From positions 1 to 64,000 of the forward strand of contig JBEKTQ010000021.1 in NCBI GenBank assembly GCA_049515895.1: a stretch of 64,000 nucleotides of DNA. Reading direction: 5' to 3'. A model generated the notes under the pieces. It had not been told where the DNA came from and did not search any database. It saw only the letters and a list, made by a program, of their open reading frames with translations. Position numbers and translations under genes: made by a program. Below are positions 3,345 through 33,556 of the stretch, piece after piece (position 1 is the stretch's first letter; every line of letters starts with the position of its first letter). This stretch comes from Candidatus Bathyarchaeia archaeon. Lineage in GTDB: Archaea > Thermoproteota > Bathyarchaeia > Bathyarchaeales > Bathycorpusculaceae.

Positions 3345-3453
3345 CAGCAAGGAGGAACGAAAAGCGCGTAGGCGAACGGAAAGGGACTGGAAGAAAGGCG
3401 GAAGAACGGGAATCCTCGCGGTGGAACGGGAGAAAACGCGAAAAAACGCAACC
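3345..3453 (+). repeat. 10-bp-period array (GAAAnAACGS type) ending in a truncated anchor AACGCAACC (copy A0)
   Basis: gaagaacggg aatcctcgcg gtggaacggg agaaaacgcg aaaaaacgcaacc; matches part of the 14731-14840 array unit by unit. Confidence 0.7.
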
Positions 3454-3544
3454 GAGGATCATAGATGGCTATGCATAACTCTCAACCGATTGGCTAGGTA
3501 TCATTTTTCCTTGACAATTTCACAATGGCTAAGACTAAACCTGC

Positions 3545-3659
3545 GATTTTGAGGAGATTTCGGGAGAAATTGAGAGATTTTGAGAGATTTCTAGACGCAA
3601 CCTGAAACCAATCCAAACCCCATTCCAAGAAACCAACCCATTTCACAAAGAACAAATTT
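3545..3659 (+). repeat. Anchor plus 10-bp array element (copy A, GAGAGATTTT-type array)
   Basis: gaggagattt cgggagaaat tgagagattt tgagagattt, then GACGCAACCTGAAACCAATCCAAACCCC...CAAATTT. Confidence 0.85.
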
Positions 3660-4159
3660 ACTGCCCCTCACAACAGGCCAAAAACAAACCCGGGCTCAGA
3701 CATATACAAATCTGAAATATTCCCAAACCCGAAACTTCACTTATATCGAAACATCGGCTTTATAGGTATTCAAAGGAGAGGAAGTCGGCAATATGAAACC
3801 GTTGGAAGTAAGCAATGGAAGTAATCGGAAAGTTGAAGATTTGTTGAAACAGTACATCATAGAAAGAGTGCGAATGCTCTGGTCGGTAAAACCGATTCAT
3901 TTCTGATAGATTAAGCTCTGCAAGCAATGAAGCATTAGTTAACTTCAAAGACTGATTATAGTAACGATAAAAAACAACAGCCTGTTCCCCGTGGCCTGGG
4001 CCATTATTTTGGTTGACTGCAAGGCGAATATCAGGCTTAATTTGGTTTCCCAGTTAGAATTTGGTTTAGACTCTGCATTTTATCATAAACGTGAATTCTG
4101 AATCTATACGCTGGCTTCTGACGTCTTATATTCGCGAATTTCTCACAGTAGAGAGCATC

Positions 4160-4978
4160 ATGCTAGAAATGGCGAGTATTAAGCAATCAGATAGTGAGAT
4201 CTACGTCATGAAGTGCCATACGTGTGACAGCGTTATTATTTACCCTGAAGGGTTGGAGGGCGAAAGGATCTGCAGCGGCTGCGGACTTGTTTTAGAGGAT
4301 ACGCCTTCGATTAGAAGTTATGCGCAATGGGCACCCGAGTGGCATTCGAACTGGAATGAAGAAGACTCAGAAACGCTCAAGGAATGGTTAACCGTACTAA
4401 GATCGGTTTCCTGCCAACTAAACATTCCAAACTACCCCTACAGAGAAGAAGCAGCACGCACAATAAGAAAACAAAGACACAACTTATTCAAGTCGCAGAA
4501 GCTCTCAAAAAACAAAAGAGCAACAGTAGCCGCCCTAATACATTTGACACTTAAAGAATACGACAAGCTGCGTCCATTAAAAGAAATAAGCAAAGAACTC
4601 AGCCTCGACCCAAGAGAAGTTATGAAGCAAAGCTGGCTACTAAACAAAACAATAAACACGGAAAAAGAAACTCTGAAAACTCAAAGAAGAACAGCAACAG
4701 ACTACCTGCATGAATACGCAGGAAAAATAACAGAAGACAAACAGCTAATCCTTAAAACCGACGAAACACTGAACAGAATAAGAAGATCAGGTGGAAACCC
4801 AATTGGCCTGGCAGCAGGCGCATTCTACAACACATGCAAAAACAACAAAGTTAAAATCTCGAAAGAGAAAATAGGCGAAATATTCCATATTTCAGCTAGA
4901 ACCGTCTACACGAATGAAGCAAGAATCAGAAAACTAAAAGGATCGTTTAAAGCTGCAGGACGAACGTTCTCGCCGTAA
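4160..4978 (+). CDS. Transcription factor B (TFIIB)-like paralog
   Basis: Zn ribbon CHTC...ERICSGCGLVLE, a PEW motif, and two cyclin-like repeats (ATVAALIHL; NPIGLAAGAFY...ISKEKIGEIFHISARTV); start uncertain. Confidence 0.8.
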   Translation: MLEMASIKQSDSEIYVMKCHTCDSVIIYPEGLEGERICSGCGLVLEDTPSIRSYAQWAPEWHSNWNEEDSETLKEWLTVLRSVSCQLNIPNYPYREEAARTIRKQRHNLFKSQKLSKNKRATVAALIHLTLKEYDKLRPLKEISKELSLDPREVMKQSWLLNKTINTEKETLKTQRRTATDYLHEYAGKITEDKQLILKTDETLNRIRRSGGNPIGLAAGAFYNTCKNNKVKISKEKIGEIFHISARTVYTNEARIRKLKGSFKAAGRTFSP

Positions 4979-5078
4979 CAAAGACGAAATAACCTCAATT
5001 TTTTAAGAAAAGCCCAAGCGCCCCCATACTATCGCAGATTTCTTTCGCAGTTTATAAGACATCTTTGTCAATTAAAGC

Positions 5079-5471
5079 TTGGAAGAAAAATATCAAATGC
5101 TTAGCCAAATCGAAGAGCTCCATTTAAGGCTCGACAAACTTGAAAAACAGAAAGATCAAGAAGTCTTGGCATTGGTAGAGATACTATCAAACGCAACGTT
5201 TTTTGGAGAGCTAAGAAAAGCCAATTGTCAGTATGCCATGGATGGACAATGCGCCCTTTTTGTTTTGCAAGAAGAAGCAAAAAACAAGATACCGATTGTA
5301 AGTGAATGCAGAATCAAGCAATGTGAAGAATCGGCTAAGCACTTTCATATTGAATTGTCAAATATCACTTGCACACTCTGCCAGGAAGCAGAAGCGGAAC
5401 TGTTAAGCTCTTCGCCTACTAAGAAAACTAAAATTGAAGTTAATTCTCTCGAAGAAACAGGGGTAGAATGA
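5079..5471 (+). CDS. Hypothetical Cys-rich protein
   Basis: 130-aa ORF with six Cys; its stop overlaps the next start (ATGA), suggesting translational coupling. Confidence 0.65.
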   Translation: MEEKYQMLSQIEELHLRLDKLEKQKDQEVLALVEILSNATFFGELRKANCQYAMDGQCALFVLQEEAKNKIPIVSECRIKQCEESAKHFHIELSNITCTLCQEAEAELLSSSPTKKTKIEVNSLEETGVE

Positions 5472-7663
5472 ACATAATGAATAAGAAATTAGTAACCTTG
5501 ACAATTATTTTGGTCCTGTCAGTTTCAGCATTTATTGCATTTAATCAAAACAGCGCTACCCATGCAGCAGCAAGTAATCCCTTCCTCAAGATTTACGTTG
5601 CGCCAAGCAGCGTACTTGCCGACAATAATGTTTACAACTGCATTTTCGTACAGTTTATTGATTCCAGCGGACAACCCTTTAGAGCGCTGCAGGATACAAC
5701 TATAAGCTTGTCCTCGTCGCTTACGAATATTGGAACAGTGGATCCGACAATAACTATACTCAAAAATACAACTTACTCATCAGCAAACTTCTACACCACG
5801 CTTAATCCCGGAACAACAACCATATCAGCCTCAGCAACGGGCTACTCAACGGTGCAAGCATCTGTAACTACGGTTACACCGATTCCATCTGCAATAGCAG
5901 TTTATGGGTTTCCATCAATTCTTCCAGCCGACGGAGGTACTTATCCGGCTATAATGGTGCAACTGCAAGATTCAAGTGGTTTACCGGAAAGGGCACCACC
6001 AGATGGCGTAAACGTATCACTGTTCTGCTCAGACAGTAACATAGGCACCGTTAGTTCCAACGTGACCATTCCTTACGGGCAAACCTACGCCATAGCCAAT
6101 TTCACTACAACCCCAACGACTGGCAGCGCAACAGTCACCACTCTGGCAAATGGATACGCAACCCGACAAATGACGATTGCAACAAGAAATGTTGTATTCA
6201 GTCCTGATAATCCTAAATACCTTAAAATCTTTGCAGGACCCACTGAAGTTCTAGCAGATAGTAACTCATATCCACAAGTTGCAGTTGAATTACAAGACAG
6301 TCAAGGAGACATTGCGAGCATGGTTAATTCAGACGTCTTGGTCAGCTTGATTTCAACGGATACGAACATAGGGCAAATAAATCCAACTTTAACGATTGGC
6401 CCCGGTTCACAATTTCTAACTTATTCCATAGCCACTTTCAACACTACGTACACAGCAGGATCAACAAATATCGTTGCTGCAGCAACTAATTGGACCGCAG
6501 CTTCACAGTCAATAAGTACAGTAGAGTTTATTCCGCCAAAATTAGCTGTCTACACTGTCCCATCATTACTGCCAGCGGACAAAGCAACATATTCGGCTGT
6601 AATAGTGCAGCTACAAGACTCACAAGGACGCCCAGCAAAAAACCTTGAAGGAGACGTAAACGTCAACCTCTTTTCAACAGAACCACAGATAGGATCCATC
6701 AACTCAACACTAACAATCCCCTCGGGTAAAACGCAAGCCACAGTAAACTTGACGACGACAAATGCTCCTGGGTCAACCACAATCACAGCCCAAGCCCCAG
6801 GCTACGCCATAGGTCAAGGAACAGTCACAACATACCTCATCGACTTCTCACCCCTCTCTATAACCTTAACAAGCAGCGCACAAAGCATCACCAGTTCAAA
6901 TGCGACACAGATAACAGCATATGTCAACGTTAACGGCAGCCCAATAACGGGAGCGACAGTGGCCTTCTCGTCGAATGATGGCGGATTATTTTCAGCTACC
7001 ACTGAACAAGGAAACGGCTACTACCAAACAAATTTCACGGCAGCAAGCTTCTCCCAGACAACATTATGTACCATTACAGCAAGCGCTTCAAAAACAGGAG
7101 CATATATTAGCTCACAGAATACGATGCAAATAACTGTAACACCAGCGCCAGCAGCAACTCCAGCACCAACCCCAACACCAACGCCAACTGCTACTCCGAC
7201 ACCAACACCAACGCCTTCATCAAACTCGACCACAAAGACCGCGGCGACATTAACTTTGCGAATCCTTGATGACAACGATAACCCGCTGAACGACACGCTT
7301 GTTTCCTCAATAACTCAACCTGCGGGAATAGGCACGTTAGTTGACTTGACAAACGCAACGGGATACGTCACATTCCAAAACGTCACAGCCGGATCATACA
7401 CGTTTAAACTGGTCAAACAAGGGTACCCCACAACCAACGAAACAATAGACTTCCCAGGCCAATCTTTAACACTTGACATAAACTTGGTCAACGGCAAGAT
7501 AACCACCCAAACCAACGGCACATCAATAATGTTAGTATTAATAATCGTCGTGGCAGCAATCGCAATTGCAGGAGCAAGCGGATTCCTAATGATAAAAAGC
7601 GGAGAAAGATCAAGGACGAGAAAAATAAAAGAACTCCAAAAACAACTAAACCCAAAAACCTAA
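5468..7663 (+). CDS. Membrane-anchored surface protein with Ig/invasin-like repeats
   Basis: Signal peptide, four repeats of the type P..LPAD...Y....VQLQDS.G, a Pro/Thr linker, a carboxypeptidase-regulatory-like domain, and a C-terminal TM helix with basic tail. Confidence 0.85.
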   Translation: MNIMNKKLVTLTIILVLSVSAFIAFNQNSATHAAASNPFLKIYVAPSSVLADNNVYNCIFVQFIDSSGQPFRALQDTTISLSSSLTNIGTVDPTITILKNTTYSSANFYTTLNPGTTTISASATGYSTVQASVTTVTPIPSAIAVYGFPSILPADGGTYPAIMVQLQDSSGLPERAPPDGVNVSLFCSDSNIGTVSSNVTIPYGQTYAIANFTTTPTTGSATVTTLANGYATRQMTIATRNVVFSPDNPKYLKIFAGPTEVLADSNSYPQVAVELQDSQGDIASMVNSDVLVSLISTDTNIGQINPTLTIGPGSQFLTYSIATFNTTYTAGSTNIVAAATNWTAASQSISTVEFIPPKLAVYTVPSLLPADKATYSAVIVQLQDSQGRPAKNLEGDVNVNLFSTEPQIGSINSTLTIPSGKTQATVNLTTTNAPGSTTITAQAPGYAIGQGTVTTYLIDFSPLSITLTSSAQSITSSNATQITAYVNVNGSPITGATVAFSSNDGGLFSATTEQGNGYYQTNFTAASFSQTTLCTITASASKTGAYISSQNTMQITVTPAPAATPAPTPTPTPTATPTPTPTPSSNSTTKTAATLTLRILDDNDNPLNDTLVSSITQPAGIGTLVDLTNATGYVTFQNVTAGSYTFKLVKQGYPTTNETIDFPGQSLTLDINLVNGKITTQTNGTSIMLVLIIVVAAIAIAGASGFLMIKSGERSRTRKIKELQKQLNPKT

Positions 7664-8155
7664 TTTCACTTTTCCCATTTTTAGACCGTTTTTACTGTGT
7701 CATTTTTATGGATAATTTCTTTATAGGATATGAAATAGTTCAGCAATCTGGCGGCTTCTTCATTCTTAAATATAGCCTGTGATTCCTTCAACCTATTCAC
7801 CCTTCAACTTGACGGATTTTAACTCGCCTCTCAGAGAATAAAACGTTTCATAATATGCGCGGATATGTCTCACTAATTCAAAAAGGAAAAACCACTTTGG
7901 GTAAGCCTTCTTTACTCTGCAAAAGCAAGCCGATTAAAACTCTAAATAAACATAAAAAATTAAAGAATCCAGAAAAAGATCCCGAAAATTAGGAAACAGC
8001 CGCGTAGAATCCAACCTATTGCAATATTCCTTCAGGTTAAATCTGGACAAATTTGAGTTCTTCGGTGGGATGCACTTGTAGGAGTATCGTTACAGTCACA
8101 TTTGTTTATACATTACTGTATGGTTTATTATGACATAATACAAAAGGGGTTCTGA

Positions 8156-8689
8156 ATGGTTCATCAAAGCATTAGGAAAGTACCTCACAAGATCAATGAA
8201 GGAACGGTACACTTAATTCAATCAATGGTCAACCCGAGCGGCAATCATACCCGCAGAAAAATAATGACCGCTGCAACGTGTTTATTGGCCATCGTTGTTT
8301 TCAGCGCCGTCGTTGCAGCTCTCGCCACGGACAAAACTATTGTCTACGCGAACCCCTTGAGCAGCCTCGGAGCAGGGGTTTACTGGGATCAAGCTTGCAC
8401 AAATAGGACTCTTTCGCTCGTTTGGGGAGCAATGGAGCCTGGTTCAAACAGTACTTTAACGATATATGTTAGAAATGAGGGCAATTCGGCGGCTTCGCTG
8501 ACATTGCAAACATCAAACTGGAACCCACCAATCGCCATGAACTACTTGTCTCTAAAATGGAACTACACGGGTCAAGTCCTTAGCACAGGTCAAGTAATCC
8601 CTCTCGAACTAACCCTAACTGTTAGCCCGACCATAACTGGAATAACTAATTTCAACTTCGGCACACTCATAACCACAAGCCACCACTAA
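8156..8689 (+). CDS. Hypothetical exported beta-sandwich protein
   Basis: Hydrophobic N-terminal helix followed by GVYWDQACT..WG...PG....TIYVRNEGN. Confidence 0.7.
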   Translation: MVHQSIRKVPHKINEGTVHLIQSMVNPSGNHTRRKIMTAATCLLAIVVFSAVVAALATDKTIVYANPLSSLGAGVYWDQACTNRTLSLVWGAMEPGSNSTLTIYVRNEGNSAASLTLQTSNWNPPIAMNYLSLKWNYTGQVLSTGQVIPLELTLTVSPTITGITNFNFGTLITTSHH

Positions 8690-8964
8690 CAATTTAATAA
8701 TCAGAAGCGCAAAGATCATTGATTCAGGCTTAGGCAGACGAACAAAAACAAATCGTCCAAGCTCAATTCATTAGCTTCTTTGAATCCGAGAAACGACTAT
8801 CCGAAATTGATGTTAATCTCCGAGACTTATGAAGAAAGTAACCCATCACCAATTTGCAGTAAATTTCTAGTTTGACTGTTACCCTACTGAAAAACGCATC
8901 AAGTTTTCCATCTGTGTTTATATTCAAATTCTTTGTCAAATGAAAACAGGAGAGAAGGCAGCTA

Positions 8965-9410: not shown

Positions 9411-9558
9411 GGTCGGGGATAGTCGGGATGGGTCGTTGCGAGTCGTATTGGGTCGCTGCGAGTCGCAGTGGGTCGAATGGAGTCGTTTTGGGTCGCAACC
9501 TGCAACCAATCCAAACCCCATTTCAAAGAAGCAACCCATTTCACAAAAAACAAATTTT
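9411..9558 (+). repeat. Anchor plus 10-bp array element (copy B, alternating GGTCG/AGTCG-N5)
   Basis: Nine in-phase RGTCG units from 9411; the ninth (9491) runs into GCAACCTGCAACCAATCCAAACCCC...CAAATTTT. Confidence 0.9.
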
Positions 9559-9620
9559 CTGCGACGAAAAACCGCAAAACCTGCCCTCAATCTTCTCGAC
9601 AAGATTTTCCTCGCGATTTT

Positions 9621-9758
9621 AGATTCTTCTAGATTTTTCTAGATGTTTCTAGATTTTTCTAGAGCTTTATAGATGTTTTTAGATGTTTCTAGATGATAGT
9701 TGAAGCCGATCCGAGCTCCAAACCAAGAAAGCAACCCAAAACACAAACAACAAATTTT
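9621..9758 (+). repeat. Anchor plus 10-bp array element (copy C, AGATKTTTCT array)
   Basis: Eight in-phase AGA-started units, a diverged core, then AAGAAAGCAACCCAAAACACAAACAACAAATTTT. Confidence 0.88.
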
Positions 9759-9805
9759 CTACCCAAAAAAAAGAAAATGAAGGTTGCACGCCGTAGCTTG
9801 TTCGC

Positions 9806-10468: not shown

Positions 10469-10474
10469 TTTGTT

Positions 10475-13676: not shown

Positions 13677-13697
13677 TACCAATACTATTAGAATGGC

Positions 13698-14730: not shown

Positions 14731-14902
14731 AAAAGAACGCAAGTAAACGCGAAAGAACTGGGAAGAACGGGAAACAACGCGAAAGCACGGGAATCAACGC
14801 GGTGGAACGGGAGGAAACGGGAAAAGACTGGAAAAAACGTGACCTGCAGAAGGTCCAAGCTCTGAACAAGAAAAGCAATCTGAAAAGAGCTTCGCAAGTT
14901 TT
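14731..14902 (+). repeat. Anchor plus 10-bp array element (copy D, GAAAnAACGS array)
   Basis: Eleven in-phase units, then ACGTGACCTGCAGAAGGTCCAAGC...AAAAGCAATC (diverged anchor). Confidence 0.82.
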
Positions 14903-15060
14903 GTGTTCGTCCCTGGGCAACTTTTCTTCACAAGGAGACAAAAAAATCGCCGGAAAAGCACCTCTGACGCACGTTCTTGAATCTTCGATTTTTGACGGTA
15001 TTTGACTTGGGTAATGTTAAACGACGGTGGTGGCCATCTATTGACTTTTGTTGACGTTAG

Positions 15061-15217
15061 GACTTTAGGAGACTTTACCAGACGATGGAGGACTTTGGGA
15101 GACTTTGGCAGACGATGGCGGACGATAGGAGACTTTAGGAGACGATAGGAGACGCAACCTGCAGCTGATCCAAGTTTCTCCACAAAAAAGCAACCCAAAA
15201 CACAAACAACAAAATTT
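15061..15217 (+). repeat. Anchor plus 10-bp array element (copy E, GACKWTRGGA array)
   Basis: Nine units all starting GAC, then GACGCAACCTGCAGCTGATCCAAG...AAAGCAACCCAAAACACAAACAACAAAATTT. Confidence 0.9.
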
Positions 15218-15341
15218 GGAGCGAAAGAATAAACTTGCAAACTTGGCGACTACCGTTTTCCTTCGCAACCTGCTTTTGGCGTCTTTTAAGAAGGAAAGAG
15301 AAATAAGCAGACGCGCCACCAATATTTTTTGTTTTACAAAG

Positions 15342-16909: not shown

Positions 16910-16918
16910 GCGTTCAAG

Positions 16919-20716: not shown

Positions 20717-20814
20717 CCTAAGAATTCTTTGCCTCGCTTAATAGTGTAACGTCCAGTTCTCGGCATTACTCAATTTCCAGGTTTGCTAGTGATTTAGCAC
20801 GTGGAAAATCCGGC

Positions 20815-20942
20815 AAAATTTGTTGTTTGTGTTTTGGGTTGCTTTGCTTGTTTAGGGCTTGGATTGGCTGCAGGTTGCGTCTAAAAATCTCCCCAAATCT
20901 CCCAAATTCTCCTTAAATCTCCCGAAATCTGTAAAATTCTCT
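20815..20942 (-). repeat. Anchor plus 10-bp array element (copy F, GGAGATTT array)
   Basis: Minus strand: agatttcggg agatttaagg agaatttggg agatttgggg agattttta, then GACGCAACCTGCAGCCAATCCAAGCCCTAAACAAGCAAAGCAACCCAAAACACAAACAACAAATTTT. Confidence 0.9.
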
Positions 20943-21152
20943 GAGAACGTCAATAACGAAGAACCTATTATTTGATAAGAAGACGAACGGTTCCGAAGTC
21001 CGTCTTATATTAGGCGTTACGGGGGACAAGACCTTAAATATTAGGCGCCGCAGTTTTTGGGATAGAAGAGAACTTGAAGCTTTTGCAGTTTCATTGAATT
21101 ACTCCCCAAATCTTTAAAATTATCCAAGCCACTAATGATTTGAGAATCGTAA

Positions 21153-23619: not shown

Positions 23620-24597
23620 ATGACTAGATTCCTTTCATGCGGGGAACTTTATGAAACGATTCAACAAAAATCCCTAGAAGCTAAAGAGATTCTATGGGTA
23701 TGTTCCCCGAATCTTGGATTGGACGCGCACAAAATCTTCTCCCAAGAGATCCTAAAGAATCCTCCAGCAGATATTCGATTTGTTTTCAGAGTTGACGATG
23801 CCACGGTCAAGAGAGGCGAAGTCAATCCCTATGAAATACAATATTTCTCGGAGCATTTCAATGGCAGCAGCATCAGGACACATGAAAACTTTCATTCGAA
23901 CATTTACATTTTCGACCAATCCGCATTAATCACATCAGCAAACATGACAAAAACCGCTTTTGAAAACAACATTGAAGTTGGAGTCCTGATTGAAGGGTCA
24001 GAAGTAGATGAAGTAAAGAGCTTCTTTAATCAAAGTCTGTGGACACACGCAAAAACGATAAACGACTTAAAAAGATACAAGCAAGCATGGAACATCGCCC
24101 AAAAAACTTGGAAAAACAGTAATGTGAAAAGAGCCAAGCCTCAAACGGCAATCAGGGATTGGACCAACGATTATACCAGAACTTGGTATATAGGTATCCT
24201 CAATCGAGTGTCGTCAAAGAATGAGCGCAAGATAAAGAAAGAAACAAATTGGCAACCTGAACTCTCGCTAGCGGGTGACATCGGTTATAATTGTTTTAAG
24301 GAAATCAAGCTCGGCGATTTAGCCTACGTGATTGACTTAAGCAAGAAACGCGGAAAGATAGAAATTGAATTAGCACGGGTATTTGACAAAAGCAGGGTAG
24401 AAACGGATCAGGGCGACCTTCATCTTGCCTACGAAATAAAAAACTGCTACTCAATAGAGAGGCAACAATTCTATGAAATGTTGGAAAACTCAGATATTAA
24501 GTCTAGAAGTTGTGAAAAATTACTTGATGAAGATCAACTAATGCAAATTGCCAATACACTTTCCTCAATCAAACGTAAACGGAAACCTAAACGATAG
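23620..24597 (+). CDS. Phospholipase D-like (nuclease-type) domain protein with altered HKD motif
   Basis: CSP, FHSNIYIFD..ALITSANMT..AFENNIEVGV. Confidence 0.8.
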   Translation: MTRFLSCGELYETIQQKSLEAKEILWVCSPNLGLDAHKIFSQEILKNPPADIRFVFRVDDATVKRGEVNPYEIQYFSEHFNGSSIRTHENFHSNIYIFDQSALITSANMTKTAFENNIEVGVLIEGSEVDEVKSFFNQSLWTHAKTINDLKRYKQAWNIAQKTWKNSNVKRAKPQTAIRDWTNDYTRTWYIGILNRVSSKNERKIKKETNWQPELSLAGDIGYNCFKEIKLGDLAYVIDLSKKRGKIEIELARVFDKSRVETDQGDLHLAYEIKNCYSIERQQFYEMLENSDIKSRSCEKLLDEDQLMQIANTLSSIKRKRKPKR

Positions 24598-24740
24598 CAA
24601 TTTTTGTTCTTTGTGCTTTTAGATTGCTTTCTTTGTTTGGGGCTTTTATTGATTGCAGGTTGAGTCAAAAAAAGTCAAAATTAGTCAATAAAAGTTAAAA
24701 TAAGTCGAAAAAAGTCAAAATAAGTTCAGAAAATTCGAAA
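24598..24740 (-). repeat. Anchor plus 10-bp array element (copy G, TTTTGACTTW array)
   Basis: Plus strand tgagtcaaaa aaagtcaaaa ttagtcaata aaagttaaaa taagtcgaaa aaagtcaaaa; minus-strand anchor GACTCAACCTGCAATCAAT...AAGAAAGCAATC..AAAGCACAAAGAACAAAAATT. Confidence 0.85.
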
Positions 24741-24824
24741 AATCTTTCTCAGAATTAGGTATCGAGAACTGAATAATAACGATGAATAAACTGATAGGAT
24801 CTGCTAACAAAGAAACATTCATTT

Positions 24825-27778: not shown

Positions 27779-27869
27779 AGTTGCAGCGGAAAACTTATCT
27801 GTGAAGCAACTGTGAATTGCATGGTTAAACGAAAACTTTAGGCGCACGTGAATCGAGGTGAATTGAAAA

Positions 27870-28166
27870 ATGGTTGAAACGAAAACTGTTGAAATGAAGG
27901 TTGACGCGTCAGAACTCAAAGGCGACAAGAAGGACCTGGTTTCGAAGCTGTCAGATTTCCTCAAGGACAAAACAGGCGGAGAAGTCTCCTTAGCATCGGA
28001 AGTTGTAACAATTAAAGGCCAAGGCGAAGCCTTAAGCAAAAAGTACATTCGGGTTACGGTGAAAAAGTTCTTGCACAAGCATGAGCTAACAGAGCAGTTC
28101 AGAGTAATCGGCGGCGAAGAGAACCTACTAAAAGTTAAAGAAAGAGTAACGGGCGAAGAAGACTAA
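27870..28166 (+). CDS. rpl22e: Ribosomal protein eL22-like
   Basis: FLKDK...LSKKYIRVTVKKFLHKHEL...FRVI parallels eukaryotic eL22 FSKRYLKYLTKKYLKK..LRDWLRVV. Confidence 0.75.
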   Translation: MVETKTVEMKVDASELKGDKKDLVSKLSDFLKDKTGGEVSLASEVVTIKGQGEALSKKYIRVTVKKFLHKHELTEQFRVIGGEENLLKVKERVTGEED

Positions 28167-28297
28167 ATTCCTTCCTTTTAAACTTATATTAATCAAATTT
28201 TTCTTGGTTCAAAGATCTTGAGAGCGCAACCTGTACTATTATGTGAACAGCTTGTTCTAATGCGTAGCATTAAATCAAAAAACGCCATTTCTAAACA

Positions 28298-28504
28298 TTG
28301 CACAAGCAGGCGGGAGATTGGAACTTGAGCCACAAAACCATCGCCGTAAGCACGGCAATTATCGTTATTTCACTCGTGACTTTGACCGCGCTCTTTGCTG
28401 AAACCTACGCCACGCTGCAAAATATTAACCCCGTAGCCGCTTTGGCAGCCGTAGCAGTCGTATTAATAGGTTTAGTTTGGTTCAAAAAAGCATGCAAATC
28501 CTAA
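28298..28504 (+). CDS. Small two-TM membrane protein
   Basis: Two hydrophobic helices and a basic tail. Confidence 0.55.
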   Translation: MHKQAGDWNLSHKTIAVSTAIIVISLVTLTALFAETYATLQNINPVAALAAVAVVLIGLVWFKKACKS

Positions 28505-28529
28505 AAAGGAAAAAGTAGAAAGAAGCAGT

Positions 28530-30974
28530 TTACTTTCGTTTCAGCATGTTTTCCAGGATTGGTTTTAGCTTTGCGTTCTCAATTTGAATCTTTTCTTTGC
28601 CGAGCGCTTTTCGTTGCTCGTCGATTTCTTTGATGACCTCAGCGTAGCGTATGCCTTCAGCCGCTGAAACATATTCGACGCGGAACCGTTCGGGACTCAT
28701 TCCTAGTTTGGTTAGCATTCCTTTGAGTGCATCTGTTCGCGCTTTCATCTTGTAGTTTCCGCTGATGTAGTGGCAGTCATATGGCAAGTGGCATGCTCCG
28801 ATCAGAACCATTCCTGCCCCGAGCCTAAGCGCTTCCAAAATGAATTCGCGCGCAACCCTGCCGCTGCACATTACACGGATGGCTCTCACGCTTGAAGGGT
28901 AGTCGAAACGGCTAGTCCCTGCTAGGTCTGCTCCCGCGTAGCTGCACCAGTTACAGAGGATCGCGAGGATTTTGTCTTCAGGCTTGTCTTCGAGCGCAGC
29001 GCGGATTTGAGCTATGATTTGAGCATCTGTGAAGTGCATCTGTGTTATAGCATGCTGCGGGCATTCGGCAACGCATGTTCCGCATCCGTGGCAGCTGGCG
29101 GTGATTATTTGCGCTGGCTTAGGCTTTTCAAGTCTGATTGCCCCGTAGGGGCATTTGTCAACGCAGATGCCGCAGCTTTTGCATTTGCTCTCGTCGATGA
29201 CAGAAATGATTGGTTCAATCTTCCATTTTGGCTTGCTGATGACTGTTGCTGCACGTGAAGCGGCGCCGCTGCCCTGGGAAACGCTGAAAGGAATGTCTTT
29301 TAAGCCTACGCATGCGCCAGCATAGAAGACTCCGTCAGTGGGGGCATCCATCGGTTTAAGTTTAGGATGGGCTTCCATGAAGAAGCCGTCTGCGCCACGT
29401 GACAGGTTGAGTATTCGTGCGATGTCTTCTGAGCCTTTTTTAGGTATGGCTGCCGTGGCGAGCACGACCATGTCCACGTCGACCTCGATGGGTACCCCGA
29501 GGATTGAGTCTTCGGAGTGAACTGTTAAATTGTGAGTTGTTGGGTCTTCGTCGATGCGGCTTACTCGTCCGCGGATGAAGTTTACGCCTCGTTCTCTTGC
29601 GCGATCATAGAATTCTTCGTAGCCTTTGCCTGGGCTACGGATGTCCATGTAGAAAACGTAGACTTCAACATCTTCCTTGTACTTCTCCTTGATTTGAACC
29701 ACATGCTTGAGCGTGTACATGCAGCAGAAGTTGCTACAGTACGGGTACTTACTCTTGTCTCGGCTGCCAACACACTGGATAAAAGCTATTCTATGCGGTT
29801 TTTGACCGTCGGATTGCCGAATCACTTTGCCTCCTGTTGGGCCAGCAGCCAGAATCAGCCGTTCAAACTCCATGCTTGTGATGACATTGGGGTATTTTCC
29901 GTATCCGAGAAGCGGCATGTCGTAGGGTAAATAAACGTCAAAGCCAGTGGAAACAATGATTGCGCCAACGTCAATGTCGACTTCTTCAGCCTTTTGGTTG
30001 AAATCGATGGCTTGTCGGTCACCGCAGACTTCTTGGCATTTGAAGCATTCAATACAGTAATCCTTGTTGATCGAGTAAATCAACGGCACAGTTTGGTCAA
30101 ACGGCACGGAAATTGCTTTTCTTGTGCCAAGGTTCATGTCCCACTCGTTAGGGTACTCTATTGGGCAAGCGTCTTTACATTCGCCGCAGCCGGTGCATTT
30201 ATCTTGAATGACGTAGCGCGGGTTTTTGCGGATTTTCACTTTGAAGTTGCCGATGTAACCGTCAACTTTAACAAGCTCTGAGTTAGCCAAGATTGTTATG
30301 TTCGGGTGGCGTCCGCAATCCACCATTTTTGGGCCTTCAATGCAGATGCTGCAATCAAGCGTCGGGAAGGTTTTATCTAAGGCTGCCATGTGCCCGCCGA
30401 TGCTCTGGGTGCTTTCAACCATGTAAACTTTGAAACCCATTTCGGCAAGGTCCAATGCCGCGTTCATTCCTGCTATTCCGCCGCCGATGATGAGCGCCTT
30501 GTTGGTGACTGGCACCTCAATTGTTTGCAGCGGCTGCATAAAACGTACCTTTGCTACGGCCATGCGAACGGCATCTTTAGCTCGCTGAGTCGCGCCCTCA
30601 GGGTCGCTCTGGTGGCACCATGAAGCGAACTCCCTGATGTTCGCCATCTCATAGAGGAACGGGTTTAAGCCTGCTTCAGCAACAGTGCGTCTAAAGGTGG
30701 GTTCATGCATTCTGGGTGAGCAAGCGGCGATGACAACGCGGTTCAGTTTCTGCTCCTTTATGGCTTTGCGGATTTCTTCCTGCCCTGGGTCGGCGCATGT
30801 GTAACGGTTTTCTTTTGTGAAGACGACGTCAGGTATTGTTTTTGCGTACTCGACAACTGCTTTAACGTCTACTGTGCCAGCGATGTTTAAGCCACAGTCG
30901 CAGACGAAGACGCCGACACGTAACTCTTCAGGTTTTGGAGTTTCTGGCTGTTTGGGGATTTGCGGTGAAGCCAT
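28530..30974 (-). CDS. hdrA: Heterodisulfide reductase subunit A fused to MvhD
   Basis: VFVCDCG, AACSP, NIREF.SW, GGGIAG, LDKTFPTLDC, QCVGSR and ferredoxin motifs; C-terminal MvhD motifs CNWCSYAGAD, VMCSGR and DCHY. Confidence 0.95.
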   Translation of the reverse strand: MASPQIPKQPETPKPEELRVGVFVCDCGLNIAGTVDVKAVVEYAKTIPDVVFTKENRYTCADPGQEEIRKAIKEQKLNRVVIAACSPRMHEPTFRRTVAEAGLNPFLYEMANIREFASWCHQSDPEGATQRAKDAVRMAVAKVRFMQPLQTIEVPVTNKALIIGGGIAGMNAALDLAEMGFKVYMVESTQSIGGHMAALDKTFPTLDCSICIEGPKMVDCGRHPNITILANSELVKVDGYIGNFKVKIRKNPRYVIQDKCTGCGECKDACPIEYPNEWDMNLGTRKAISVPFDQTVPLIYSINKDYCIECFKCQEVCGDRQAIDFNQKAEEVDIDVGAIIVSTGFDVYLPYDMPLLGYGKYPNVITSMEFERLILAAGPTGGKVIRQSDGQKPHRIAFIQCVGSRDKSKYPYCSNFCCMYTLKHVVQIKEKYKEDVEVYVFYMDIRSPGKGYEEFYDRARERGVNFIRGRVSRIDEDPTTHNLTVHSEDSILGVPIEVDVDMVVLATAAIPKKGSEDIARILNLSRGADGFFMEAHPKLKPMDAPTDGVFYAGACVGLKDIPFSVSQGSGAASRAATVISKPKWKIEPIISVIDESKCKSCGICVDKCPYGAIRLEKPKPAQIITASCHGCGTCVAECPQHAITQMHFTDAQIIAQIRAALEDKPEDKILAILCNWCSYAGADLAGTSRFDYPSSVRAIRVMCSGRVAREFILEALRLGAGMVLIGACHLPYDCHYISGNYKMKARTDALKGMLTKLGMSPERFRVEYVSAAEGIRYAEVIKEIDEQRKALGKEKIQIENAKLKPILENMLKRK

Positions 30975-31909
30975 TATTGTGCCTCCTTTAATGCAGGGAA
31001 TCTTTTTTCGACTGCAATGCGCCTGCTTTCACCTGCGATGGCGCGGAACTCTTTTGCTGCGTCAGCTGGCGAGGTCATTCTCTCTAAAGCTTTGTTCCAT
31101 GCGCCAGAGCGGATGGGCGTGTGGTGCACTGTTGTGCGTTTAACTGTCAGTGCTTCAGGAACGGGACAAACGTTTTTGCATGCGCCACAGTAAGTGCAGA
31201 ATAAATCGTTAACGTGAACTTTCTTGTCTTCTCCAAGCGTTAGCGCGCCTGGAATGGGGCAAACGTCGAGGCAGTCTTTGCAGCCTTCGGGACATTTCTC
31301 TTGAGCAATGGCGATTATTCCTTCGAAGGCTTTCTTGACATTTATCACGCCTGACCCACATTTGAACTCGCATACTCTGCAAGTTGGGCAATAATCCTTC
31401 TGAATGTTAAGGTTAACTTGAATACGTTTTCTGAAGCTGGGAGATAGGTCCGCTGTGTTTTCTACCGGTTTGCCGTCAAAACCAACTTTAGAAACCGTAA
31501 TTAGCCCAAGTGGACAAGCCGTTTCGCATTCAACGCATTCTTTGGGGCATTGTGCAGTATCCACTTTTATGTCGCGAACGAGTTTTGGGTAGCTGTCTTT
31601 CGCCAACAAGGAAAGGTCATGGTTTCCATTCAAAGTGACCTTGATTGCGCCGTAGGGGCACGTGACGTCGCAGATTCCGCAGAAATTACATTTTGCCAAG
31701 TCAACGTCGACTTTGGCTTTTTTAGTTTTTTCGCCCGCGGTCTTAGGCTGCTTTTGTGTCGTTATCGCCTCTTTAGGGCAGGCTAATGTGCATATTTGAC
31801 ATCCGACACAGCGTTTTTTGTCAAGGGTTAATTTGTAATTCTTAACTTGCAAACCCCACTCTATCGTCAAGGCATCAGCCGCATCTTTCTTTACGGTTTT
31901 AAACGGCAT
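30974..31909 (-). CDS. Polyferredoxin (FwdF-like)
   Basis: Six CxxCxxCxxxC(P)-type motifs; stop overlaps the hdrA start. Confidence 0.85.
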   Translation of the reverse strand: MPFKTVKKDAADALTIEWGLQVKNYKLTLDKKRCVGCQICTLACPKEAITTQKQPKTAGEKTKKAKVDVDLAKCNFCGICDVTCPYGAIKVTLNGNHDLSLLAKDSYPKLVRDIKVDTAQCPKECVECETACPLGLITVSKVGFDGKPVENTADLSPSFRKRIQVNLNIQKDYCPTCRVCEFKCGSGVINVKKAFEGIIAIAQEKCPEGCKDCLDVCPIPGALTLGEDKKVHVNDLFCTYCGACKNVCPVPEALTVKRTTVHHTPIRSGAWNKALERMTSPADAAKEFRAIAGESRRIAVEKRFPALKEAQ

Positions 31910-32152
31910 ATCTTTACCACCAAGAGCCCCATTCACACCGAACAGACGGTGCTACATCAACCAACAGGCTATTTGGAAGGAATTGCAGCGCTTTTGATAT
32001 AAATATTGCTTGAAAAAAACCGTCTTTTCTACGGTAAAAAGAAAAAAATAGAGCTTTGCGACTGTAACAGGCGTTATTGCTTGCTTTCTTGCTGGTTTAG
32101 CTTCCTTGCAATGTTTAAATTCAACGTTTACAATTTATCTGAAGGGATTATT

Positions 32153-33334
32153 ATGGCAAACTCAATTTCTGCCGAAGATGTATGTTCAAAAAGCTTTCGA
32201 AGCGTGCAGGAGAACGATCCGCTTTCCCGATGCTTAGAAGCCTTTGAAAAAGGAATGCTTCCTGTCTTAGCTGTCTTGAACGATAAAGGCAAGTATGCAG
32301 GCATGATTACTCGCCGCGCGATTTTAAGATCAAGACTTGACCTCAACGCCACTAAAGTTAAAACGCTGATGAAGACGGCTCCGCCAGTGACTCCTGATTT
32401 TTCAGTGAGCAAAACGGCCAAGTTGATGATTGAAAGCGGGTTAAGGCAGCTTCCGGTTCTTGAGAAAAACAAGCTTTCGGGTTTCATCACTGACGAGAAC
32501 ATTATTCATGCGGCGGTGGCACAGGAGTGGGGAAACACCAAAATAGAGACGATCATGACCCGAGCACCACACACTCTTGAAGCTAACCGTTCTGTTGGAG
32601 CGGTTCTTAGCTTAATGAGGGAGTATGGTATTTCGCATGTTCCAATCATTGATGGCGGAAAACTCGTGGGCATGATTAGCATTGAAGATATTTTAGAGAA
32701 TATCTATTGGCCGCAGAGGCGCCAGACAACGGGGGACATAGTTGGCGAGAAGCTTGAAACTTTGAGCGTTCCAGCTAAAGGAATAATGAGTAGGCAGGTG
32801 GTCACTGTTGAACCACAGACAAGCCTGCGTGATGCCGAGAAAATGATGCATGATCATGACGTTTCCTGTTTAGCAGTTACGTCTAACGAGCGCCTGGTCG
32901 GTGTTGTGACGAAGCTTGATTTTCTTGAACCGATTAGCCAGCTAGAAACCGTTGAACGCAAATTGTCGGTGCAGTTCGGTCTTAAAGATTTGGAGATCAC
33001 GCCTGAGCAGCAAGCCTTCATGATGGATGAATTCGATTCTTTCACACACAAGTACCAGGAAGCCTTCCAGTTAGGCACACTCTTCGTATACATGAAAAGC
33101 CACGGCAACACAAACCTGCGCGGAACACCCATGATCCACTGCCGCCTCCAATTCAGAACCGTCAGAGGCACATTCTACAGCGCAAGCGAAGGCTGGGGCA
33201 TTGAACCCACATTCAGAGTGGCCTTAGACCGCCTCGACCGCAGATTACTGCGAAGCAAAGAATTGCTGGCATACAACCCAAGGTACGCGCGGGATTACCT
33301 GCGTAAAATCGGGTTGCCACAAGAAGAGAGCTAA
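32153..33334 (+). CDS. Four-CBS-domain protein with C-terminal HPF/RaiA-like domain
   Basis: CBS motifs (LRQLPV, ISHVPII, VGVVTKLD); the C-terminus ...IHCRLQFRT.RGTFYSASEGW...FRVALDRLDRRL fits an HPF-like fold. Confidence 0.8.
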   Translation: MANSISAEDVCSKSFRSVQENDPLSRCLEAFEKGMLPVLAVLNDKGKYAGMITRRAILRSRLDLNATKVKTLMKTAPPVTPDFSVSKTAKLMIESGLRQLPVLEKNKLSGFITDENIIHAAVAQEWGNTKIETIMTRAPHTLEANRSVGAVLSLMREYGISHVPIIDGGKLVGMISIEDILENIYWPQRRQTTGDIVGEKLETLSVPAKGIMSRQVVTVEPQTSLRDAEKMMHDHDVSCLAVTSNERLVGVVTKLDFLEPISQLETVERKLSVQFGLKDLEITPEQQAFMMDEFDSFTHKYQEAFQLGTLFVYMKSHGNTNLRGTPMIHCRLQFRTVRGTFYSASEGWGIEPTFRVALDRLDRRLLRSKELLAYNPRYARDYLRKIGLPQEES

Positions 33335-33369
33335 TTCCATCCCTCTTTCTTATGGCAAAGACTTAGGTA

Positions 33370-33556
33370 TATTTTTGTTGTTTGTGTCTTGTGTTGCTTT
33401 GCTTGTTTAGGGCTTGAAGCGTTTGCAGGTTGCGACCCACAACGACTCCCTTCGACCCATTGCGACTCGTAACGACCCAATACGACTCGTAATGACCCAT
33501 CCCGACTATTCCAGACCTTCCCGTTTTTTCGCGTTTTTTAGCGTTCTTTCCCGTTA
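33370..33556 (-). repeat. Anchor plus composite 10-bp array element (copy H)
   Basis: Minus strand: GAAAAAACGS units, then nine RGTC(G) units, then GCAACCTGCAAAC...GCCCTAAACAAGCAAAGCAACACAAGACACAAACAACAAAAAT. Confidence 0.9.

What the first reader, a model, noticed from the sequence alone, without database searches (positions are those of the whole stretch)
3345..33556. Dispersed family: conserved ~65-bp anchor fused to locus-specific 10-bp-periodic arrays
Seen: eight full copies (3545, 9411, 9621, 14731 and 15061 on +; 20815, 24598 and 33370 on -) plus a truncated one (3345). The anchor consensus is roughly GACGCAACCTGCAGCCAATCCAAGCCC-N-AAGAAAGCAACCCAAAACACAAACAACAAATTTT. It is always preceded on the same side by about 5-12 units of 10 bp. 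Unit sequence differs between loci (RGTCG-N5, AGATKTTTCT, GACKWTRGGA, GAAAnAACGS, GAGAGATTTT, TTTTGACTTW), yet the period holds and each array is in phase with the first 10-mer of its anchor and shares its leading bases. Inference: period rather than sequence is conserved, consistent with sites phased on one helical face. Candidate roles are histone positioning, a centromere-like polymerisation track, or accessory sites for a recombinase. I do not recognise it as a named element.
Basis: partly seen in the sequence, partly recalled or inferred. Interest (0 to 1): 0.85.

Follow-up and report, generated by a model that had tools for sequence, protein, structure and literature searches.

The report
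Dispersed archaeal repeat with 10-bp arrays
A peat-dwelling Bathyarchaeia genome carries about 75 copies of a short non-coding element, each a conserved 70-base core joined to a run of 10-base repeats whose sequence keeps changing while their spacing never does, and nothing like it has been described.

Summary
An HMM built from the eight window copies finds 75 anchors in the 3.18-Mb genome. In 73 of 75, the 80 bp upstream repeat best at lag 10. Of the genome's 54 strong 10-bp tracts, 52 lie beside an anchor. In other species, 131 of 140 anchors behave the same way, and no strong array has period 9 or 11.

The arrays are specific to subfamilies, not to loci. Their units share a weak consensus, nnGACkTTTn. 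Arrays change length in steps of 10 bp and are most uniform next to the core. Elements are intergenic, non-coding and unstructured. They have no terminal inverted repeats and no recurrent partner gene. They were found almost only in one Bathyarchaeia genus, at 0 to at least 47 copies per genome. Some sit at the same site in several species with the core kept but the array type replaced.

Best reading: a new REP/BOX-like dispersed repeat family that acts as DNA, with a core recognition site next to helically phased weak sites. Its function is untested.

The parts
3345..3453 (+). Truncated copy. It has a 10-bp array of GGAACGGGAA/AAAACGCGAT type, then only the first bases of the core (GCAACC at 3448-3453), then unrelated sequence.
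   Evidence: Read. TRF finds period 10 at 3425-3449. nhmmer finds no core here.
3545..3665 (+). Full copy. Array 3545-3592 has GRGAGATTTY units. Core is 3593-3665.
   Evidence: E 6e-14.
9411..9563 (+). Full copy and first member of a tandem pair. Array 9411-9490 alternates GAGTCG-N4 and GGGTCG-N4 units. Core is 9491-9563.
   Evidence: E 1.4e-15.
9612..9763 (+). Full copy and second member of the tandem pair. Array 9612-9690 has TAGATKTTTC units. Core 9691-9763 has the variant start TAGATGATAGTTGAAGCC.
   Evidence: E 2.3e-15.
14731..14909 (+). Full copy and first member of a composite pair. Array 14731-14836 has GGAACGGGAA/AAAACGCGAW units. Core 14837-14909 is divergent (GTGACCTGCAGAAGG...).
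   Evidence: E 2.3e-13. The same composite occurs at C13 and C18.
15037..15221 (+). Full copy. Array 15037-15149 has TTGACK units at the far end and GGAGACKWTA units next to the core. Core is 15150-15221. This copy has no tail.
   Evidence: (E 3.5e-15).
20810..20945 (-). Full copy. Array 20945-20884 has GGGAGATTTN units. Core is 20883-20810. It lies upstream of a radical-SAM gene (19706-20716).
   Evidence: (best hit, E 1.1e-17). Elements occupy the same site in other species.
20783..20817 (-). Optional 3' tail, TTTGCCGGATTTTCCAC...AACTCACAA-like. A subset of copies share it.
   Evidence: Alignment of 17 copies. The motif is found at offset +65 or +66 in 15 of 75 copies.
24592..24742 (-). Full copy. 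Array 24742-24668 has TTGACTTWTT units. Core is 24667-24592. It lies between two convergent genes, an aminoacyl-tRNA synthetase and a PLD-like protein.
   Evidence: (E 7e-12).
33368..33556 (-). Full copy with a mosaic array, 33556-33438. AACG-type units lie at the far end and GRGTCG-N4 units lie next to the core. Core is 33437-33368.
   Evidence: E 3.3e-13.

Best explanation
This is a family of short (about 150-350 bp) non-coding dispersed repeats found almost only in one Bathyarchaeia genus. It resembles bacterial REP/BOX-type intergenic repeats but shares no sequence with any of them.

Each copy has two parts. The first is a conserved, G-poor core of 65-70 bp with two invariant blocks, each containing GCAACC. 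The second is a one-sided 10-bp minisatellite that ends in a partial unit (6 of 10 nt) exactly at the core.

Shown here:
- Whole elements, array plus core variant, exist as subfamilies at several loci.
- Arrays gain or lose units in multiples of 10 bp.
- The units next to the core are the most uniform, and the far units decay.
- Elements are present or absent at matching sites in different species.
- Where an element is kept at a matching site, the core persists while the array type is replaced.

Inferred:
- New units arise at or near the core junction by in-register duplication (slippage, unequal exchange, or microhomology-mediated tandem duplication). Old units drift outward and decay.
- Copies spread and homogenise within a genome by copying or gene conversion.
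- The element works as DNA. The core is the specific site for a still unidentified protein. The array is a row of weak nnGACk sites, one per helical turn, on which that protein or a chromatin protein binds cooperatively or wraps.
- A spacing of exactly 10.0 bp fits overwound, wrapped DNA better than free B-DNA at about 10.5 bp per turn. This last point rests on established helical-repeat values, not on a test made here.
For: Family and period:
- 75 anchors in the genome.
- 73 of 75 have best lag 10 upstream, and none shows this downstream except where a tandem partner follows.
- 52 of the genome's 54 strong 10-bp tracts adjoin an anchor, and one of the other two is a truncated copy. Strong tracts at other lags number 2, 3, 5, 0 and 0 for lags 7, 8, 9, 11 and 13.
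- In other species, 131 of 140 anchors have best lag 10, and all 94 strongly periodic arrays do.

Shared unit core and junction: C at position 5 in 81% of 95 distinct unit consensuses. The junction matches the unit at 4.19 of 6 positions.

In-register change: indels of 10, 20 and 30 bp separate subfamily copies. A 30-bp difference separates two closely related metagenome contigs at one site.

Polarity: in 110 arrays of 6-14 units, a unit's best identity to another unit of its array is 8.77, 8.30 and 8.57 of 10 for the three units nearest the core, against 7.48, 8.01 and 8.39 for the three at the far end.

Subfamilies copied whole.

Same site, same core, different array: the C5:27956 site in 5 species, the C7:175240 site in 4, and the window 20883 site in several.

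Presence or absence: 19 of 24 two-flank placements filled in other species are empty in this genome.

Not RNA structure or coding: no consensus structure on either strand and no Rfam match.

Distribution:
- 76 of the 80 listed exact-pattern loci are Bathyarchaeota or Bathyarchaeia MAG records.
- 68 of 100 congeneric genomes match the model, with 0 to at least 47 hits each.
- 1 of 16 genomes outside the genus matches.

A histone gene is present.
Against: - No binding protein was identified, and no gene recurs next to the elements.
- At least 8 unit types coexist in one genome, which is awkward for a single sequence-specific binder.
- 32 of 100 congeneric genomes have no match, so the element is dispensable. 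The model may, however, miss diverged cores in the more distant species.
- The fixed period could be partly inherited. In-register slippage preserves an ancestral period without any selection.
- Only 43% of 215 arrays carry at least 4 A-tracts per 60 bp, and 57 of 215 carry 1 or none, so intrinsic bending is not universal.
- Within units, A/T and G/C bases are only modestly segregated: first-harmonic amplitude 1.59 against 1.37 after permutation, reached by 3 of 2000 permutations.
- The far-end values in the polarity test are biased downward by the way I called array ends.
- No mechanism of spread is shown. Exact insertion boundaries could not be resolved at 70-82% flank identity.
Confidence: 0.45

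Rival explanations
1. A purely selfish MITE-like non-autonomous transposon. A transposase encoded elsewhere in the genome moves it. The core and the repeated nnGACk units are that enzyme's binding sites, as with the multiple subterminal sites of Tn7 or Mu ends. The period is held because the enzyme needs it, or simply because it was inherited.
For: - 75 dispersed copies, with subfamilies copied whole.
- Presence or absence at matching sites.
- Copy number from 0 to at least 47 within one genus.
- Every kind of intergenic context is used: divergent 22, convergent 21, co-directional 15 and 12, of 75.
- The genome holds DDE (12 hits) and tyrosine-recombinase (12 hits) genes.
- The same reasoning led to the parasitic reading of the pneumococcal BOX, RUP and SPRITE repeats (abstract of PMC3049150).
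Against: - No terminal inverted repeats in any of the 5 copies scanned, and no shared end motif across the family.
- No target duplication could be seen.
- No anchor lies beside a transposase.
- The genome's long multi-copy repeats are host paralogues, not IS elements.
- No Y1 transposase, and no TnpB over the cut-off.
- Integrase counts do not follow element counts. G115 has 39 elements and 0 integrase hits, and G110 has 47 and 1. G066 has 0 and 15, and G065 has 0 and 13.
- Cores are retained at matching sites across species whose flanking genes are only 73-85% identical.
- DDE counts were not profiled across the genus.
Confidence: 0.25
2. A host chromatin or chromosome-architecture element. 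The phased array positions or nucleates the archaeal histone, whose footprint grows in 30-bp steps, or another nucleoid protein. The stiff A-rich core stays free. Together they would mark domain boundaries or roadblocks.
For: - The invariant 10.0-bp period.
- Superperiods of 20 and 30 bp in the window arrays.
- Typical array length of 5-9 units, or 50-90 bp.
- One histone gene.
- Enrichment of phased A-tracts: 43% of arrays against 18.5% of controls have at least 4 per 60 bp, with a modal spacing of 10.
- P. furiosus histone tetramers occupy regions of about 60 bp beside a specific site in CRISPR leaders (passage of PMC13748974).
- A-tracts together with TrmBL2 position Smc at tens of sites in T. 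kodakarensis (passages of PMC11840125).
Against: - Nothing was tested biochemically.
- 32 of 100 congeneric genomes have no match.
- A quarter of arrays have almost no A-tracts.
- The units' conserved C at position 5 points to base-specific contact rather than shape alone.
- A/T versus G/C segregation within units is modest.
Confidence: 0.2
3. A transcription-linked element: a small unstructured RNA gene, a terminator or insulator, or an upstream promoter module. T-runs in the array and in the core's complement would stop RNA polymerase from either side.
For: - Strong strand asymmetry. There are 377 T runs of 4 or more against 78 A runs of 4 or more on the array-to-core strand.
- The core's complement is G/T-rich with many T3-4 runs.
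- Many copies lie 30-40 bp beyond the stop codon of a convergent gene.
Against: - No bias in orientation towards neighbouring genes. The upstream gene is on the same strand in 38 cases and the opposite strand in 34. The downstream gene is on the same strand in 38 and the opposite in 33.
- The distance from the core to a downstream start codon ranges from 2 to 1301 bp.
- Some array types have no T-runs, for example GRGTCG-N4.
- No conserved structure and no Rfam family.
- The radical-SAM promoter region is intact in relatives that lack the element.
Confidence: 0.07
4. Recombination sites. Cores are crossover or accessory sites for a site-specific recombinase, or hotspots for homologous recombination, and they drive inversions.
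For: - The window segment from about 14.7 to 24.7 kb is inverted relative to two relatives, and both breakpoints fall in gaps that hold oppositely oriented elements.
- Gaps holding anchors are more often synteny breaks: 21 broken against 13 collinear, compared with 39 against 56 for other gaps of at least 150 bp (odds ratio 2.3, p 0.046).
Against: - The relatives have no element at either junction.
- The two flanking copies belong to different subfamilies.
- The enrichment is weak and loses significance when only convergent or divergent gaps are compared (p 0.12).
- Integrase counts do not track element counts.
- Any dispersed repeat can mediate rearrangement.
Confidence: 0.03

Closest known systems
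BOX elements of Streptococcus pneumoniae (with RUP and SPRITE)
   Same: Both are short, non-coding, intergenic, dispersed repeats. Both are built of modules, one of which is repeated a variable number of times. Both are confined to a narrow group of species and carry no transposase of their own. Both insert slowly. The distribution and the parasitic reading come from the abstract of PMC3049150. The boxA-boxB(n)-boxC layout is recalled.
   Different: BOX units are tens of bases long and fold into extensive secondary structure. Here the unit is 10 bp, neither strand folds, the array lies on one side only and is polar, and the host is an archaeon. There is no sequence similarity.
REP/BIME and REPIN elements with their RAYT transposases
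   Same: Both are high-copy intergenic repeats, partly selfish and partly used by the host.
   Different: REPs are palindromic hairpins moved by a Y1 (IS200-like) transposase. This is recalled. Here there is no palindrome and no Y1_Tnp match in the genome.
MITEs that contain tandem repeats (for example DTC84 of the clam Donax trunculus)
   Same: Both are non-autonomous dispersed elements built around a short internal tandem array. I saw only the search listing and the start of the abstract of PMC3879986.
   Different: Those are eukaryotic and are bounded by inverted repeats. Here there were no inverted ends in any of 5 copies, and the array abuts one fixed core.
Plasmid centromeres made of iterons (R1 parC and pSK41 parC, bound by ParR)
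   Same: Both have rows of direct repeats of about 10-11 bp, one per helical turn, often with a 20-bp superperiod. In the plasmids a small protein polymerises on them cooperatively. This is recalled and was not checked in a call.
   Different: Centromeres are single loci next to their own par genes. Here there are 75 chromosomal copies with no recurrent neighbouring gene and many unit sequences in one genome.
Archaeal histone-positioning DNA and histone-bound CRISPR leaders
   Same: Both involve sequence with about 10-bp periodicity that places histone dimers or tetramers (30 or 60 bp) next to a specific functional site. I saw a passage of PMC13748974 and the listing of PMC3691661.
   Different: There is no evidence here that histones bind the arrays. 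The arrays are true tandem repeats rather than a dinucleotide bias.

Membership tests
MITE (non-autonomous DDE transposon) | Terminal inverted repeats at both ends | tested here: not met
   An inverted-repeat scan of 5 window copies found 0-4 weak internal pairs per copy. None lay at the two ends and none was shared between copies. Candidate end motifs occur in only a minority of the 75 copies.
MITE (non-autonomous DDE transposon) | Target-site duplication flanking the insertion | tested here: inconclusive
   Five filled/empty pairs were aligned. At 70-82% flank identity the boundaries cannot be placed to the base.
MITE (non-autonomous DDE transposon) | A parent IS in the genome with the same ends | tested here: not met
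   No anchor lies next to any of the 12 DDE_Tnp_1 hits. The long multi-copy repeats are host paralogues. The ends of the DDE elements were not compared base by base.
REP/REPIN-RAYT | Palindromic hairpin unit | tested here: not met
   RNAalifold gives 0 pairs on the top strand, and 6 invariant G-U-rich pairs (-1.45 kcal/mol) on the bottom strand.
REP/REPIN-RAYT | Y1 (IS200-like) RAYT gene in the genome | tested here: not met
   PF01797 gives 0 matches in the genome, while 6 of 14 control genomes match.
BOX-type modular repeat | Conserved end modules flanking a middle module repeated a variable number of times, with stable secondary structure | tested here: not met
   The layout is modular with a variable repeat number, but there is only one conserved module and no structure. 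It works like BOX but is not a member.
CRISPR array | Repeats of 24-40 bp separated by unique spacers | tested here: not met
   The units are 10 bp and contiguous, with no spacers.
Known RNA family (Rfam 15) | A match to a covariance model | tested here: not met
   A cmscan of window 1-36000 at E up to 1 found only the 5S rRNA at 18899-19018.
ParR-type iteron centromere | An iteron array next to its own partition genes | tested here: not met
   The flanking genes are ordinary housekeeping or surface-protein genes. No gene family recurs beside the elements.
Helically phased protein-binding array (a functional class, not a family) | Sites spaced by one helical turn, with spacing conserved when sequence changes | tested here: met
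Helically phased protein-binding array (a functional class, not a family) | Demonstrated protein occupancy | not testable with these tools
   This needs MNase, ChIP, DAP-seq or gel-shift experiments.

The most novel reading that the evidence does not exclude
These may be copyable chromatin-phasing cassettes. The 10.0-bp array would nucleate a short histone (or other nucleoid-protein) superhelix at a position fixed by the protein-bound core. About 75 such units per chromosome would act as boundaries or roadblocks that shape chromosome folding and local transcription. The constant replacement of unit sequence under a fixed period would then be the signature of selection on DNA shape and phase rather than on base sequence. 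If so, this would be the first dispersed, self-propagating nucleosome-positioning element described in an archaeon.
Probability: 0.18. Interest if true: 0.85.

Novelty: new variant of a known kind. Interest (0 to 1): 0.62.

Why it matters
Small dispersed repeats are well catalogued in bacteria but barely in archaea. I found no description of this family: three full-text searches, Rfam and the plasmid, phage and viral collections all came back empty.

Its unusual feature is a natural experiment. More than 200 arrays carry about 95 different unit sequences, yet every strongly periodic one keeps a 10-bp period and the same phase to a conserved core. This separates spacing from sequence more cleanly than most designed constructs do. 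It therefore makes helical-phase constraints in archaeal chromatin or protein-DNA assembly directly testable.

In practice the family is also the main repeat that breaks assemblies of these abundant peat archaea, and it is a marker for one Bathyarchaeia clade.

Tried and rejected
- Expression. No RNA holder was listed for window 14001-24000, so expression could not be examined.
- Laying contigs. Contigs of four DNA runs laid on window 3200-23199 showed only contigs ending at the anchors and depth spikes there. For example, depth is about 1105 at 15175 against about 40 nearby. The listed 'joints' have short sides of 20-43 nt and look like pieces of other copies. None was usable as evidence of excision or copy-number variation.
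- Upstream motif. GCTTTGAAAGTTAAC, seen before a few arrays, occurs 26 times at up to 2 mismatches, but only 5 of those lie upstream of an anchor. I dropped it.
- Apparent inverted ends. The similarity between CGGTGGTGGCCGCC and the tail turned out to be two degenerate array units, not an element end.
- Long downstream homology. Homology beyond the core comes from tandem partners only. Elements end within about 70-140 bp after the core starts.
- Partner genes. No family recurs beside the elements. The largest family near them is a 35-member set of beta-propeller surface proteins, 7 of which lie within 2.5 kb.
- Hypermutability. In species pairs with 93-95% identical flanks, the arrays are 95-96% identical, so these are not contingency loci.
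- Exact insertion boundaries. They could not be resolved.
- Metagenome scan. A scan with a flanking-gene pattern gave 5 contigs. One is identical to the window, two carry the related element and differ by 30 bp in the array, one carries a different array type, and one is empty.
- Replication polarity. GC skew on the element strand is -0.014 +/- 0.0055 and is positive at 23 of 60 loci. This is too weak to use.
- Supplements of the cited papers were not consulted.

Full report
WHAT IS THERE

Each has a run of 10-bp units that leads, always on the same side and strand, into a conserved G-poor stretch of about 70 bp:

...GCAACCTGCARnnnnTCCAAGCCCnAAAC.AAGAAAGCAACCCAAAACACAAASAACAAATTT

TRF reports every array at period 10, often with 20- or 30-bp superperiods. 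The 3345 copy is an array followed by only the first bases of the core. Half of the anchor matches 3 times in the window at up to 3 mismatches, against none in 100 shuffles.

SCALE

The window is C21:1-64000 of a 3.18-Mb, 53-contig assembly. An HMM built from the eight window cores finds 75 copies at E below 1e-3.

- In 73 of 75, the 80 bp upstream repeat best at lag 10 among lags 5-15.
- Mean self-match is 0.617 at lag 10, 0.615 at lag 20 and 0.59 at lag 30. At other lags it is 0.24-0.33.
- Downstream of the core the lag-10 value is 0.295. In 5000 control intergenic 80-mers it is 0.274.

The reverse test is equally clear. The genome has 54 strong non-simple 10-bp tracts. Of these, 52 lie within 150 bp of an anchor, and one of the other two is a truncated copy. 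Tracts at lags 7, 8, 9, 11 and 13 number 2, 3, 5, 0 and 0. Lag 12 has 34. Ten-base tandem periodicity in this genome is therefore essentially a property of this family alone.

ANATOMY

Homology among copies runs from about 60-400 bp before the core to 70-140 bp after its start. Longer downstream matches arise only because many copies sit in same-strand tandem pairs 170-310 bp apart. A subset carries a 3' tail, TTTGCCGGATTTTCCAC...AACTCACAA. It is found at +65 or +66 in 15 of 75 copies.

The units fall into types: GGGAGATTTN, TTGACKTTAG, GGAGACKWTA, TAGATGTTTC, GRGTCG-N4, GGAACGGGAA, TAACCRTTTT and TTGACTTWTT. These types are shared by several loci and travel with particular core variants. Mosaic arrays occur, with one type at the far end and another next to the core.

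I registered 210 arrays from this genome and other species on the CAACCTGCA block.

- 153 have units at least 70% identical to their own consensus, giving 95 distinct consensus units.
- The 6 nt before CAACCTGCA match the array's unit at 4.19 of 6 positions. Unit positions 7-10 match the core's CAAC at only 0.73 of 4.

The 'first 10-mer of the anchor' is therefore really the last, partial repeat unit, and the array/core boundary is sharp.

Unit sequence is not free. Position 5 is C in 81% of distinct units, position 3 is G in 56%, position 4 is A in 58%, and positions 7-9 are T in 61-63%. The consensus is nnGACkTTTn.

Median array length is 7 units (interquartile range 4-9, n 63) in this genome and 5 units (3-6, n 124) in other species.

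WHAT IT IS NOT

- RNA structure: no consensus secondary structure on the top strand (0 pairs) or the bottom strand (6 invariant pairs, -1.45 kcal/mol).
- Rfam: nothing apart from a 5S rRNA elsewhere in the window.
- Inverted ends: none in any of the 5 copies scanned.
- Coding capacity: I saw none.
- Neighbouring genes in the window are ordinary. They include surface proteins, MarC, flavin reductase, an M24 peptidase, radical SAM, a class I tRNA synthetase, a heterodisulfide-reductase-like protein and a CBS protein.
- By my own crude ORF calls, copies lie in divergent (22), convergent (21) and co-directional (15 and 12) gaps, with 5 at contig ends, of 75. There is thus no orientation rule relative to genes, and no fixed distance to a start codon.
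- No gene family recurs beside the elements.
- The genome's long multi-copy repeats are host paralogues: TrmB-like, GT2, wHTH, beta-CASP, MFS and KaiC-like genes.
- The genome has 12 DDE_Tnp_1 hits and 12 tyrosine-recombinase hits. It has no Y1 transposase and no TnpB over the cut-off. None of these genes adjoins an anchor.
- No match in the viral, plasmid or phage collections.

DISTRIBUTION

Of the 80 listed, 76 are records titled Candidatus Bathyarchaeota or Bathyarchaeia archaeon, and 4 are strays.
- nhmmer finds 143 anchors in 101 of those 111 loci.
- 131 of the 140 anchors with enough upstream sequence have best lag 10, and all 94 strongly periodic arrays have lag 10.
- Other species show further unit types, such as GCGATTATTT, ACACAWTTNA, AGCCTTTTTG and GTACGTTTAC.
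- A BLAST with one copy found 1 of 16 genomes outside the genus.
- Hit number follows relatedness to this genome (Spearman 0.72 over 48 non-independent genomes). All 15 genomes with at least 80% identity in a tRNA-synthetase gene have elements (median 37 hits). Of 17 genomes at 77% or less, 12 have none. The model may miss diverged cores in the distant species.
- Runs labelled peat or wetland metagenome hold the stretch.

EVOLUTION

- Subfamily copies at different loci differ by indels of 10, 20 and 30 bp inside the arrays.
- Two closely related metagenome contigs at the radical-SAM site differ by exactly three units.
- In 110 arrays of 6-14 units, the unit touching the core is the most like its array-mates (8.77 of 10), and the far end is the least (7.48). 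The far end is biased by how I called it. The core end, however, clearly lacks the edge decay expected from symmetric unequal exchange.
- Elements persist at matching sites in several species with the core kept and the array type replaced. At the C5:27956 site the units are TAGATGTTTC here, TAGACTTWTT in two loci, TTGACTTTAG in one and CACACAATTN in one. The C7:175240 and window 20883 sites behave alike. L036 and L122 are the same sequence and count once.
- Paralogues within this genome share array types that orthologues do not. This points to copying or gene conversion within genomes.
- Conversely, 19 of 24 two-flank placements of elements from other species (about 15 distinct sites) are empty here, and 5 are filled. 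Two alignments show a clean extra block of roughly 200 bp in the filled genome, but boundaries cannot be set to the base at 70-82% identity.
- In species pairs with 93-95% identical flanks, the arrays are 95-96% identical. Turnover is therefore slow, not hypermutation.

REARRANGEMENTS

Relative to two relatives, window segment about 14.7-24.7 kb is inverted. Both breakpoints fall in gaps that here hold oppositely oriented elements: 14731 and 15061 on +, and 24598 on -. The relatives have no element at either junction.

Across the loci from other species, anchor-bearing gaps are synteny breaks more often than other gaps of at least 150 bp: 21 of 34 against 39 of 95 (odds ratio 2.3, p 0.046). 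The difference is not significant when only convergent or divergent gaps are compared.

HOW IT PROBABLY WORKS

The secure part is that this is a clade-restricted family of non-coding dispersed repeats that is copied as whole modules. It has a polar minisatellite that changes in register.

The fixed period needs an explanation. In-register slippage alone would preserve an inherited period. However, unit sequences have been replaced many times (95 consensuses), while no strongly periodic array among 94 in other species has a period other than 10, and the genome as a whole has five 9-bp and no 11-bp tracts. If single-base indels swept through arrays at even a tenth of the rate of substitutions, some would be expected. 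This is an inference with an assumed rate. I therefore favour a constraint on spacing.

Three observations together suggest a DNA-level assembly:
- the conserved C (often within GAC) once per turn;
- the sharp junction with a core carrying two GCAACC blocks;
- the absence of RNA structure.

In this model a protein recognises the core, and it or a chromatin protein occupies the phased weak sites. A spacing of 10.0 bp suits wrapped, overwound DNA better than free DNA. This rests on established helical-repeat values and was not tested here.

Other observations bear on this:
- One HMf-type histone gene is present.
- Phased A-tracts are enriched. 43% of 215 arrays have at least 4 per 60 bp, against 18.5% of controls, with a modal spacing of 10. 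They are not universal, since 57 of 215 arrays have 1 or none.
- T-runs strongly favour one strand (377 against 78).
- Within units, A/T and G/C bases cluster slightly more than chance. The observed amplitude was reached by 3 of 2000 permutations.

The main rival is a purely selfish MITE-like element whose transposase I did not find. The dispensability of the element in 32 of 100 congeners and its presence/absence pattern fit that reading. The lack of inverted ends and of a partner, and the long retention of cores, do not. Integrase counts do not follow element counts.

COMPARISON WITH KNOWN SYSTEMS

The closest known kinds are pneumococcal BOX repeats and REP elements. Like this family, both are narrow-range, intergenic and modular (abstract of PMC3049150). 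Tandem-repeat-bearing MITEs (listing) and iteron centromeres bound by ParR (recalled) also resemble it in part. It fails the defining tests for each of these.

Archaeal precedents exist for specific sites flanked by positioned histones and for A-tract-dependent Smc roadblocks (passages of PMC13748974 and PMC11840125). These are leads, not tests.

Three full-text searches found no description of this family.

VERDICT

- The family is a new variant of a known kind, the dispersed intergenic repeat. Its helical-period constraint is unusually clean and testable.
- Its function remains open.

Noticed in passing
G000 contigs; in the window, copies at 3592-15149 are on + and copies at 20883-33438 are on -: Neighbouring element loci on a contig tend to share orientation: 22 pairs are the same and 10 differ. 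Where orientation switches, it is nearly always convergent (9 convergent, 1 divergent, binomial p 0.02). On a circular chromosome the two kinds of switch must be equal in number, so the missing divergent switches would have to lie between contigs. I have no explanation.
   Followed up: partly
window about 14700-24800, compared with L122 (G064) and L123 (G051): A segment of about 10 kb is inverted relative to two relatives. It holds flavin reductase, an M24 peptidase, DUF1512, the 5S rRNA, a radical-SAM gene, a PKD surface protein and a PLD-like gene. Both breakpoints fall in element-bearing gaps.
   Followed up: partly
window 18899-19018 (-): A lone 5S rRNA gene (65.4 bits) lies among protein-coding genes.
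   Followed up: no
window 18-793, inside ORF 3-1853 (-): Three tandem copies of a 261-bp unit (79-89% matches) lie within an Ig-domain surface-protein gene that runs off the window's start.
   Followed up: no
window 7138-7212 and 23195-23412: Coding repeats of 12, 18 and 36 bp (AACACCAACTCC-like) lie inside two large surface-protein genes, one Invasin_D3/CarboxypepD_reg and one PKD. The genome has 34 strong 12-bp tracts in all.
   Followed up: no
G000 C1:148144-149506, C39:770-2134, C27:56084-56869: A gene pair (178 aa of unknown function plus a 261-aa TrmB-family regulator) is present in three copies at about 86-88% DNA identity.
   Followed up: partly
G000 contigs C48 and C50-C53: Five short contigs (2.7-3.7 kb) have 55-60% G+C, against 40-47% for the rest of the assembly. 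They may be foreign or rRNA-bearing pieces.
   Followed up: no
G000 C15:70079-70199: A second truncated copy. It has a full TTGACK-type array and the first 17 nt of the core, then unrelated sequence.
   Followed up: partly
G000 C1:18425-18644 and similar copies: In one subfamily, a short GGGAGATTT-type array is followed not by the core but by a different conserved 45-nt connector (GAAAATTTTCCAYCG...TTAATYC). A second array and the core follow that. More module types than array plus core therefore exist.
   Followed up: no
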